Below, piece by piece: positions 53,101 through 53,791 of a DNA stretch of 64,000 bases; the first letter of the stretch is position 1; every line of letters begins with the position of its first letter. Where the stretch lies: the NCBI GenBank assembly GCA_964554645.1, contig CAZKPK010000001.1, positions 3,697 to 67,696 of the forward strand, given 5' to 3'. The translations under genes and the position numbers were made by a program. The DNA comes from an uncultured Candidatus Saccharibacteria bacterium (GTDB lineage: Bacteria > Patescibacteriota > Minisyncoccia > Phycocordibacterales > UBA9973). A model generated the notes under the pieces. That model searched no databases and was not told the DNA's origin. It was given only the letters and a program-made list of their open reading frames with translations.

Positions 53101-53791
53101 TCCCGCCTCTGGCGGGACAGGTGTAAAATCTGCTCACTCCCGCGATATTTCAGGATCCGGCGGGGAAAAAATAATCAAAGTGCTTTCAGATCTGGAAGAT
53201 AGTAAGGCGGGGGCTAAAAACGAAATAGAATATCTTGTTCCGTTTCACAGAATGCCTACCGTTAAAGCAGGTGATCACATAAAGAAAGGGGATCTCCTAA
53301 CTGACGGGTCAGCGGATATTGCTGAAATGTTTAAATTTGGCAACAAGGAATTAGTCGAAAATTATATAATTCGGGAAATAAACAAAGTTTATGAATTGCA
53401 AAGCGCTTCAATTTCCAGAAAGCATACGGAAATAATTATCCGCCAAATGTTTTCGCGCCGAAAAATAAAAGACGCGGGCGACACTAATTTTTCCATCGGC
53501 GATATTGTTGAGAATACCGCATTTATAGAAGAAAATCAGAGAGTTGCGCGCTTGGCGGTTAAACCGCCAAGCGCGCTTGGCGGTTTAACCGCCAAAGCAG
53601 AAACAGTGGTGCTTGGTATCACGGAAGTGTCGCTTCGCACTAAAAGTTGGCTCTCGGCGGCTTCGTTCCAAAACACCAATCGCGTTCTTATTGAAAACGC
53701 GGTCAAGGGCGGGGTAGATTCTTTGAGAGGGTTAAAAGAGAATGTTATAATCGGTAGGTTAATTCCGGCTGGAACTGGATTTAAAAAATAA
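50120..53791 (+). CDS. rpoC: DNA-directed RNA polymerase subunit beta'
   Basis: 1223 aa; Zn [48 protein letters not shown]. Confidence 0.98.
   Translation: [1223 protein letters not shown]
53102..53116. repeat. GC hairpin within a GC-rich segment of rpoC
   Basis: CCCGCC-TCT-GGCGGG; surrounding 53095-53170 encodes [23 protein letters not shown]. Confidence 0.55.
53546..53597. repeat. family C palindrome doublet inside rpoC
   Basis: GCGCGCTTGGCGGTT-A-AACCGCCAAGCGCGC (31-nt perfect palindrome) + CTTGGCGGTTTAACCGCCAAAG; translated [15 protein letters not shown]. Confidence 0.92.

What the first reader, a model, noticed from the sequence alone, without database searches (positions are those of the whole stretch)
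53546..53597. The same family C doublet gives RpoC and LigA an identical foreign peptide
In rpoC a 31-nt perfect palindrome (GCGCGCTTGGCGGTT-A-AACCGCCAAGCGCGC) plus a second unit reads [15 protein letters not shown]. LigA has [13 protein letters not shown]. The two proteins are unrelated, so sharing [13 protein letters not shown] is explained by the same DNA doublet inserted in the same orientation and frame. The site lies just upstream of the conserved [21 protein letters not shown] block of beta'.
Basis: seen in the sequence. Interest (0 to 1): 0.65.

Follow-up and report, generated by a model that had tools for sequence, protein, structure and literature searches.

The report
Translated palindromic repeat doublet in rpoC
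A tiny hairpin-forming DNA repeat, apparently spread by a transposase-like enzyme in ultra-small CPR (Patescibacteria) bacteria, sits in frame inside the RNA polymerase beta-prime and DNA ligase genes, so two unrelated essential proteins carry the same extra peptide.

Summary
The rpoC gene (50120-53791) carries two 19-nt hairpin units, TTGGCGGTT-W-AACCGCCAA, at 53552 and 53577. Together they form a perfect 44-nt palindrome read as [15 protein letters not shown]. The ligA gene carries a 42-nt version ([13 protein letters not shown]) and a single unit (LGGLTAK). None of 120 beta-prime relatives (85-90% identical) has the peptide, and the site is a variable loop.

The unit is not private to this genome. 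The exact 19-mer occurs in about 78 Patescibacteria loci of several named candidate groups. In eight assemblies it flanks, at a fixed -35 and at the stop codon, a single IS200-like HUH/Y1 transposase gene. This is the REP/RAYT arrangement. The window holds a homologous gene with a different cognate palindrome.

The identical peptide needs no insertion bias. Each doublet has only one stop-free frame, and both strands give the same peptide. Doublets were found only inside genes, 12 of 12 genome sites and 52 of 52 metagenome hits, including rpoB, gyrB, secA and atpG.

Intragenic REPs and Rickettsia RPEs are already known. This is a new variant, in a new phylum, of a known kind. No transposition was shown, and no family-C transposase lies in the window.

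The parts
50120..53791 (+). rpoC (RNA polymerase beta-prime, 1223 aa), the host gene
   Evidence: Pfam RNA_pol_Rpb1 domains in homologs, which are 85-90% identical and come from Ca. Nomurabacteria/Paceibacterota.
53552..53595 (.). Family-C doublet: a perfect 44-nt palindrome of an A-form unit (53552-53570), a GCGCGC spacer and a T-form unit (53577-53595). It is translated as [14 protein letters not shown](K).
   Evidence: It is self-reverse-complementary and only one frame is open.
53546..53576 (.).
   Evidence: In the RNA and DNA folds it forms the longer of two adjacent hairpins.
21045..23222 (+). ligA (NAD-dependent DNA ligase, 725 aa), the second host gene
21763..21804 (.). Family-C doublet, 42 nt = 14 codons (unit spacing 19 nt; 20-bp arms, 2-nt centre), read as (N)[13 protein letters not shown]
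   Evidence: Its exact 34-nt core occurs 52 times in metagenome contigs, always inside ORFs.
21353..21375 (.). Single family-C unit with its AC...GT feet (23-nt perfect palindrome), read as LGGLTAK
   Evidence: The orthologous copy is present in L033/P0123, P0126 and P0131, and decayed versions (GGLASK, GSLAPK) occur in other relatives.
34085..34780 (+). Context: an IS200-like HUH/Y1 transposase (RAYT-like) gene in the window, homologous to the transposases that flank family C elsewhere but paired with a different palindrome
   Evidence: tblastn gives 35-38% identity, E about 1e-23. Pfam Y1_Tnp scores 20.6 bits, just under the cut-off of 23. The NHFHIIL (HUH) and Y-x-H-L-N-P motifs are present.
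34063..34800 (.). Context: three copies of that gene's own palindrome, TCCCATAGGTC-R-GACCTATGGGA, at 34063-34085 (abutting the start), 34370-34392 (in frame, just after HUH) and 34768-34800 (over the stop codon)

Best explanation
The rpoC segment is an in-frame doublet of a REP-type element. The unit is the 23-nt perfect palindrome AC-TTGGCGGTT-W-AACCGCCAA-GT, which is dispersed through many Patescibacteria (CPR) genomes.

Shown:
- The unit is shared, letter for letter, by about 78 CPR loci.
- In eight CPR assemblies the same hairpin flanks a single IS200-like HUH/Y1 transposase gene, starting exactly 35 nt before the ATG and again at the stop codon.
- Each transposase lineage has its own palindrome at those same places.
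- The rpoC copy is absent from all 120 close relatives, and the site is a variable loop.
- Each doublet has a single stop-free frame.

Inferred:
- The cognate transposase (RAYT-like) recognises the hairpin on single-stranded DNA and copies single units or inverted doublets to new sites, as proposed for REP/REPIN-RAYT systems.
- In these gene-dense genomes most landings are in genes. Survivors are those in length-tolerant loops, with a net length divisible by three, and in a benign frame.
- That filter, not targeting, makes unrelated proteins carry LAVKPPS...GGLTAK.
- The perfect 44-nt palindrome and its absence from relatives make the rpoC copy recent. The single ligA unit is older, because it is shared with some relatives and decayed in others.
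For: Distribution: the exact 19-mer occurs in 82 genome-contig loci, about 78 of them Patescibacteria of many named groups. Four non-CPR hits are at my own back-of-envelope chance level.

Unit boundaries: 71 of 104 copies carry AC...GT feet.

Transposase link: loci with three copies hold a 212-220 aa ORF that passes the Pfam Y1_Tnp threshold (23.6 and 32.7 bits against a cut-off of 23). The HUH and Tyr motifs are conserved. The 5' hairpin starts at -35 in all six complete genes and the 3' hairpin lies at or after the stop.

Co-variation: six transposase lineages carry six different palindromes in the same architecture, including the one in the window. Two orthologous genes (L004, L064) changed all three copies together.

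Recent gain: 0 of 120 beta-prime relatives have the peptide, and the loop varies in length. The nearest relative L003 has identical flanks and no repeat. Solved beta-prime structures align with an 8-residue gap at this point.

Frame filter: one open frame per doublet. Among 52 intragenic units, 25 read LAVKPP, 24 read GGLTAK and 3 read WRxNRQ, against 1:1:2 expected (binomial P = 5e-12 for all copies). My hand collapse of orthologous sites still gives about 2 of 30.

Doublets are intragenic: all 12 genome sites with a partner unit and all 52 metagenome hits lie in ORFs.

Hosts: UvrC, DnaG, RpoB, GyrB, SecA, AtpG, GatB, MiaA, KsgA, DprA and others.

Decay: L003 rpoB carries LAIKTPSALSGITTK, 32 of 45 nt identical to the rpoC-type doublet.
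Against: No family-C transposase lies in the 64-kb window, so activity in this genome is only inferred.

The boundaries are not those of a clean insertion. Net gains are smaller than the elements and no target-site signature was found.

The transposase scores far below the curated RAYT model (18-24 bits against 80). It matches solved Y1 transposases only weakly (E = 0.05 to ISDra2 TnpA).

The repeat has no GTAG or CGTC tag.

Two observations could also mean selection on the hairpin or gene conversion. The 23-mer is kept exactly at an orthologous ligA site in L033 although the LigA proteins are only about 75% identical. The three transposase-linked copies also evolve together.

Transposition was not and cannot be demonstrated here.
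Confidence: 0.7

Rival explanations
1. Copies spread and are refreshed by recombination without a transposase. Candidate routes are ectopic gene conversion or template switching between hairpin copies, which overwrite a stretch of a loop rather than insert into it.
For: The boundaries look like replacement. The ligA single unit adds about 1 aa, the ligA doublet +9 aa, and the rpoC doublet +10 aa against 14-15 codons of element. The 5', internal and 3' copies of L004 and L064 changed together. At one orthologous metagenome site the doublet occurs with either centre, S or L.
Against: Conversion does not explain the first arrival at new, non-homologous sites in more than 20 unrelated genes. It also does not explain the strict pairing of each palindrome with its own transposase lineage. 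A 19-23 nt tract is very short for homologous recombination (established knowledge).
Confidence: 0.13
2. The hairpin is a host-selected functional nucleic-acid element, kept where it is because of what it does. Possible roles are a transcription pause or terminator, an mRNA stability element, or a protein-binding or replication signal.
For: The same 19-23-mer is kept across CPR groups. The stems are very stable. Non-coding copies have longer, locus-specific palindromic extensions than coding ones (mean 4.5 against 2.4 bp). Many look like A-run/hairpin/T-run bidirectional terminators. Each transposase gene carries an in-frame copy of its own palindrome.
Against: Presence varies among close relatives at each site. 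Copies decay (GGLASK, LAIKTPSALSGITTK). The hosts are unrelated genes at non-homologous loop positions. A 44-nt perfect hairpin inside an essential ORF has no evident regulatory logic. The exact-match search that retrieved the loci inflates apparent conservation.
Confidence: 0.1
3. It is a DNA uptake sequence of naturally competent CPR bacteria. Like Haemophilus USS or Neisseria DUS, such sequences accumulate in genes in tolerated frames.
For: There is a frame bias in coding regions. Non-coding copies sit in terminator-like hairpins. DprA and type IV pilus genes occur in these genomes.
Against: There are only 5 copies in 64 kb. Several unrelated palindrome families coexist in one genome. Each family is tied to its own transposase gene. 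Uptake sequences are not themselves perfect palindromes (established knowledge).
Confidence: 0.03
4. It is a peptide motif selected at the protein level, or an assembly artefact.
For: The same peptide occurs in many proteins.
Against: LAVKPPS and GGLTAK are two frames of one palindrome, and the palindrome also occurs in non-coding DNA. The unit is found in more than 80 independent assemblies from different projects.
Confidence: 0.02

Closest known systems
REP/REPIN-RAYT systems (repetitive extragenic palindromes with REP-associated tyrosine transposases; PMC3116915, PMC5581495)
   Same: It is a short palindromic repeat dispersed in the genome. Inverted doublets can fold into one long hairpin (REPIN-like). 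A single HUH/Y1 transposase gene is flanked on both sides by the same repeat. Each transposase lineage has its own repeat.
   Different: The units are perfect 19-23-nt palindromes without a GTAG or CGTC tag. About half of the single units and all doublets found lie inside genes and are translated. The transposase scores far below the curated RAYT model. The transposase ORF usually contains an in-frame copy of its own repeat. The hosts are Patescibacteria, for which the paper searches found no REP/RAYT description.
Intragenic GTAG/CGTC REPs (Di Nocera et al. 2013, PMC3733652)
   Same: That paper reports REP singles and dimers inside ORFs of known proteins, often replication and repair genes including a DNA ligase. 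They encode 20-30 extra residues and are interpreted as tolerated in loops.
   Different: The sequence family and phylum differ. Here the doublet has exactly one stop-free frame and was found only in genes. The frame bias is quantified. Both RNA polymerase large subunits are hit.
Rickettsia palindromic elements (RPE; cited in PMC3733652, otherwise from my own knowledge)
   Same: They are selfish palindromic DNA inserted in frame into many unrelated, functional protein genes, so that unrelated proteins share peptide segments.
   Different: RPEs are about 100-150 bp (30-50 aa). They have no known associated transposase and are restricted to Rickettsia.
IS200/IS605-family elements and their gene-less derivatives (PATEs); small dispersed repeats of cyanobacteria (both from my own knowledge)
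   Same: The enzyme is a Y1 HUH transposase acting on hairpins. The whole gene-plus-hairpins unit is about 710 bp, which is IS200-sized. The repeats are very small hairpins that also land in genes.
   Different: Only one transposase copy per assembly was seen, with many solo hairpins. Both ends carry the same palindrome rather than distinct left and right ends. No tnpB gene is adjacent.

Membership tests
REP/REPIN-RAYT system | Short (about 20-40 nt) palindromic repeat present in many dispersed copies | tested here: met
   There are 5 units at 3 sites in the window against 0 expected. Up to 12 exact copies occur in one CPR assembly.
REP/REPIN-RAYT system | A Y1/HUH transposase gene flanked by the same repeat (in other carriers of family C) | tested here: met
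   In L013, L019, L035/L023, L036, L048, L055, L057 and L070 the hairpin starts at -35 and lies at the stop. Pfam Y1_Tnp is above threshold.
REP/REPIN-RAYT system | The cognate transposase is present in this genome | not testable with these tools
   Only 64 kb is available. It contains a homolog paired with a different palindrome and no family-C one.
REP/REPIN-RAYT system | The transposase is single-copy while the repeat is multi-copy | tested here: inconclusive
   One family-C transposase was seen per assembly (L023 and L035 are two halves of one gene). However, only loci with exact 19-mer hits were fetched.
REP/REPIN-RAYT system | The repeats are predominantly extragenic | tested here: not met
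   52 of 100 CPR units, 12 of 12 doublet sites and 52 of 52 metagenome doublets lie in long ORFs.
REP/REPIN-RAYT system | A conserved GTAG or CGTC tetranucleotide at one end of the REP (PMC3733652) | tested here: not met
   The feet are AC...GT in 71 of 104 copies, and the sequence beyond them is locus-specific.
REP/REPIN-RAYT system | Inverted doublets able to form one long hairpin (REPIN) | tested here: met
   The rpoC doublet is a 44-nt perfect palindrome and the ligA doublet has 20-bp arms. Spacings of 19 and 25 nt recur.
REP/REPIN-RAYT system | The protein matches the curated RAYT model (NCBIfam NF047646) | tested here: not met
   It scores 18.3 and 23.9 bits against a cut-off of 80. No sequence match to solved RAYT structures was found.
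REP/REPIN-RAYT system | The enzyme binds and cleaves the REP hairpin and moves it | not testable with these tools
   This needs biochemistry or population data.
Rickettsia palindromic elements | A 100-150 bp palindromic element inserted in frame in ORFs, with no associated transposase | tested here: not met
   In-frame residence is met, but the units are 19-23 nt and the doublets 42-45 nt, and a cognate transposase gene exists.
IS200-type insertion sequence | The whole tnpA-containing unit is present in several near-identical copies, with distinct left and right end hairpins | tested here: inconclusive
   The unit is about 710 bp and the same palindrome lies at both ends. No second copy was seen in any assembly, but sampling is partial.
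DNA uptake sequences | One 9-12 nt motif at hundreds to thousands of copies per genome, not tied to a transposase | tested here: not met
   There are 5 copies in 64 kb, several unrelated palindrome families, and each family is tied to a transposase gene.

The most novel reading that the evidence does not exclude
The doublet may be a form of REPIN adapted to live inside coding sequence. It would be a 14-15-codon palindromic cassette with a single stop-free frame that reads the same on both strands. A distinct CPR clade of Y1 transposases would disseminate it and keep it homogeneous. Those transposases carry their own hairpin inside their ORF and evolve in concert with it. If so, the system repeatedly rewrites surface loops of essential proteins across Patescibacteria, including both RNA polymerase large subunits, gyrase, SecA and ATP synthase gamma. 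The mechanism may be closer to templated overwriting than to simple insertion.
Probability: 0.25. Interest if true: 0.75.

Novelty: new variant of a known kind. Interest (0 to 1): 0.55.

Why it matters
It extends REP/RAYT-type selfish DNA to the Candidate Phyla Radiation, where the paper searches found no description of it.

It shows what such elements do in a genome with almost no intergenic space. They survive inside essential genes as short translated cassettes, and reading-frame selection makes unrelated proteins share a peptide.

Practically, these cassettes inflate and distort alignments of marker proteins such as RpoB, RpoC, GyrB, SecA and LigA that are used for CPR phylogeny. They can also break assemblies.

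The pairing of each transposase lineage with its own palindrome gives many natural enzyme-and-hairpin pairs, so recognition rules of HUH transposases become testable. The in-frame copy inside the transposase ORF is an unexplained feature worth an experiment.

Tried and rejected
- AlphaFold2 model of the beta-prime C-terminal 203 aa, built to place the insert on a fold, gave mean pLDDT 43.6 and was unusable. Mapping therefore rests on sequence alignment to solved beta-prime chains. From the hit ranges there I estimate the insert falls near E. coli beta-prime residues 1298/1299; that alignment was not displayed.
- The rpoC-type junction AACCGCCAAGCGCGCTTGGCGGTT has 0 hits in metagenome contigs, so no strain with the same rpoC insertion or an exact twin was found.
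- The unit has only one hit in viral contigs, so there is no sign of a phage vector.
- Sequence searches of the family-C transposase against solved structures found nothing by phmmer. A profile search found only E = 0.05 to ISDra2 TnpA.
- Paper searches for RAYT or REP in CPR/Patescibacteria and for in-frame palindromes in Parcubacteria returned nothing relevant.
- Rejected: a protein motif, because LAVKPPS and GGLTAK are two frames of one palindrome that also occurs in non-coding DNA.
- Rejected: an assembly artefact, because the unit is found in more than 80 independent assemblies.
- Rejected: an insertion-frame preference, because the single open frame makes it unnecessary.
- Considered and left open: whether outer-stem extensions at non-coding copies mean insertion into pre-existing terminator hairpins. 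No empty CCCACGTGGG-type sites were found.
- Apparent perfect conservation at orthologous sites is biased, because the loci were retrieved by exact match.

Full report
**1. The observation**

The window is a 38% G+C stretch of a Candidatus Nomurabacteria/Paceibacterota (CPR) genome. This follows from the names attached to the closest beta-prime and LigA homologs.

- rpoC is 50120-53791 (+), 1223 aa.
- At 53546-53576 there is a perfect 31-nt palindrome, followed by a second unit at 53577-53595.
- The repeated unit is TTGGCGGTT-W-AACCGCCAA. The form with A in the loop and the form with T are reverse complements of each other.
- The pair 53552-53595 is a perfect 44-nt palindrome.
- In frame it reads [15 protein letters not shown] (aa 1145-1159), four residues before VLGITEVSL.
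- ligA (21045-23222) has a 42-nt doublet at 21763-21804 reading [13 protein letters not shown]. It also has a single 23-nt palindrome at 21353-21375 reading LGGLTAK.
- The 19-mer with up to 2 mismatches occurs five times against none expected. All five are in these two genes, and a looser search finds no decayed copies.
- The rpoC region folds at -42.2 kcal/mol as RNA and -30.5 kcal/mol as DNA, far below shuffled controls.

**2. The peptide is foreign to both proteins**

- None of 120 beta-prime relatives (85-90% identical) has the peptide. At this position they have a loop of variable length, typically RVxxxxGKEAKAE.
- The nearest relative with DNA in hand (L003) has identical flanks, GAGAGTTG...AAAGCAGAAAC, and no repeat.
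- Solved beta-prime chains of three bacteria align with an 8-residue gap exactly here.
- In LigA the doublet is absent from all 120 relatives. One relative, P0135, has a single LAVKPPS at the same site.
- The single unit at site 1 is shared by P0123 (= L033), P0126 and P0131. It appears decayed (GGLASK, GSLAPK) in others.

**3. The unit is a CPR-wide repeat tied to a transposase**

- The exact 19-mer is in 82 loci of the species-representative genome collection. About 78 are Patescibacteria labelled Nomura-, Giovannoni-, Campbell-, Zambryski-, Kaiser-, Peri- or Saccharibacteria. Four non-CPR hits are at my own back-of-envelope chance level. The taxon labels are as deposited.
- 71 of 104 copies carry AC...GT feet, so the unit is really a 23-nt palindrome.
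- Loci with three copies all contain a 212-220 aa ORF that passes the Pfam threshold for Y1_Tnp (IS200-like). It has HUH (NHFHF) and Tyr (Y-x-N-L-N) motifs.
- In all six complete genes the 5' hairpin starts exactly 35 nt before the ATG. A second copy lies at or after the stop, and a third lies in frame inside the ORF.
- The window has a homolog (34085-34780; 35-38% identical, E about 1e-23) with the same layout. Its palindrome is different: TCCCATAGGTC-R-GACCTATGGGA at 34063, 34370 and 34768.
- Three further homolog lineages (L035, L085, L004/L064) each carry yet another palindrome at the same places.
- The orthologous pair L004 and L064 changed all three copies together, with compensatory changes in both arms.

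This pairing of enzyme lineage with palindrome is the signature of cognate REP-RAYT pairs (PMC3116915, PMC5581495).

**4. Why the peptide is identical**

Six-frame translation shows that each doublet has one stop-free frame.
- For the 44-nt rpoC doublet both strands are the same sequence.
- For the ligA type the two strands give [13 protein letters not shown] and [13 protein letters not shown].

Any doublet that survives in a gene must therefore read this way.

Single units have four stop-free states. Two of them read WR(L/F)NRQ.
- Among 52 units inside long ORFs, 25 read LAVKPP, 24 read GGLTAK and only 3 read WRxNRQ. The expectation is 1:1:2 (binomial P = 5e-12).
- After I collapsed orthologous sites by hand, the count is still about 2 of 30.

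All 12 sites in the genome set where a unit has a partner within 45 nt are intragenic. None of the 48 non-coding units has a partner. All 52 metagenome occurrences of the ligA-type core lie in ORFs, at roughly 16 different sites by my count.

The ligA doublet is 42 nt, exactly 14 codons. A single 19- or 23-nt unit would shift the frame.

Hosts include UvrC, DnaG, DprA, TatD, KsgA, MiaA, GatB, a Mur ligase, RpoB, GyrB, SecA and ATP synthase gamma.

At one RpoB site the comparison is informative:
- L001 is empty.
- L053, L067 and L137 carry [13 protein letters not shown].
- L003 carries LAIKTPSALSGITTK, a decayed copy of the rpoC-type doublet (32 of 45 nt).

**5. Mechanism: what is shown and what is inferred**

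Shown: the repeat family, its link to a Y1 transposase, the absence of the rpoC copy from relatives, and the frame constraint.

Inferred: the transposase moves the hairpins as single-stranded DNA, as proposed for REP/REPIN-RAYT. In these gene-dense genomes only landings in tolerant loops, with a net length divisible by three and in a benign frame, persist.

Points that do not fit a simple insertion:
- Net gains are smaller than the elements (+10 aa in rpoC, +9 aa in ligA, about +1 aa for the single unit).
- The three transposase-linked copies evolve in concert.
- The centre of the doublet flips between S and L at one orthologous site.

Gene conversion or overwriting therefore remains a live rival or an additional process. 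No family-C transposase lies in the window.

**6. Comparison with what is known**

Intragenic REP singles and dimers in known proteins, including repair genes and a DNA ligase, were reported by Di Nocera et al. (PMC3733652). Rickettsia RPEs are the classic case of in-frame palindromic DNA.

This case differs in five ways:
- the phylum;
- perfect untagged 19-23-nt palindromes, with no GTAG or CGTC tag;
- a high intragenic fraction;
- the one-frame doublet;
- a transposase far below the curated RAYT model that carries its own repeat in its ORF.

The paper searches found nothing on REP or RAYT in CPR.

**7. Verdict**

I rate it a new variant of a known kind, of moderate interest.

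Noticed in passing
window 34063-34800: An IS200-like HUH/Y1 transposase (RAYT-like) gene at 34085-34780 carries three copies of its own palindrome, TCCCATAGGTC-R-GACCTATGGGA. One abuts the start, one lies in frame right after the HUH motif (34370-34392, read as SHRSDLWD), and one lies over the stop codon.
   Followed up: yes
window 14690-14732: An intergenic doublet of the same CCATAGGTC family (CCACAGGTCAGACCTGTGG plus CCATAGGTCTGACCTATGG) lies between the ORFs ending at 14684 and starting at 14745. The first unit carries compensatory changes in both arms.
   Followed up: partly
window 53101-53117: rpoC holds a second small palindrome of another family, TCCCGCCTCTGGCGGGA. 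It encodes PASGGT inside a 19-residue stretch (aa 996-1015) that most relatives lack.
   Followed up: partly
window 21533-21555; about 22749-22826; about 23112-23147 (all in ligA): ligA carries at least three more foreign segments. (1) CCCTCCCCTTAATAAGGGGAGGG gives [12 protein letters not shown]. (2) [22 protein letters not shown] is found by relatives at this site or at the family-C doublet site. (3) [12 protein letters not shown] is shared only with P0133. The same five LigA loops are hot spots for varied palindrome-like peptides across Nomurabacteria.
   Followed up: partly
window 29540-29562, 30343-30373, 30622-30642 (pheT, 29439-31367): Three further G+C-rich perfect palindromes lie inside the phenylalanyl-tRNA synthetase beta gene. 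One (ACCCCCAC...GTGGGGGT) shares its outer stem, CCCCCAC/GTGGGGG, with some family-C copies in other genomes.
   Followed up: no
L004 2853-3533 and L064 3797-4486; also L085, L035 5279-5983: Every RAYT-like gene examined has its own palindrome upstream, inside the ORF and at the stop. In the orthologous pair L004 and L064 all three copies changed together (AGGACGT against CGGGACGT, with matching changes in the other arm). The reason for an in-frame copy inside the transposase ORF is unexplained.
   Followed up: partly
L087, L088, L105 (S form) against L091, L099, L109, L112, L117 (L form): At one orthologous site (HNLKIIQPER-[doublet]-DLFIVAS) the 42-nt doublet occurs with either centre, AGT (S) or CTT (L). 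The palindrome centre is therefore inverted between lineages.
   Followed up: no
L003 rpoB (locus 905-4129, aa about 214-229); window rpoB about 47520-47565: The closest relative has a decayed rpoC-type doublet (LAIKTPSALSGITTK) in rpoB. At the same site other genomes have [13 protein letters not shown] and L001 is empty. The window's rpoB has AQSVASKDGQGSVSN there, a segment of similar length with no evident similarity.
   Followed up: partly
L007, L030, L056, L078, L081, L083 and other non-coding copies: Non-coding family-C copies are embedded in longer palindromes whose outer arms differ from locus to locus. Extensions of 5 bp or more occur in 19 of 48 non-coding copies against 7 of 52 coding ones. 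They often have an A-run before and a T-run after, like bidirectional terminators.
   Followed up: partly
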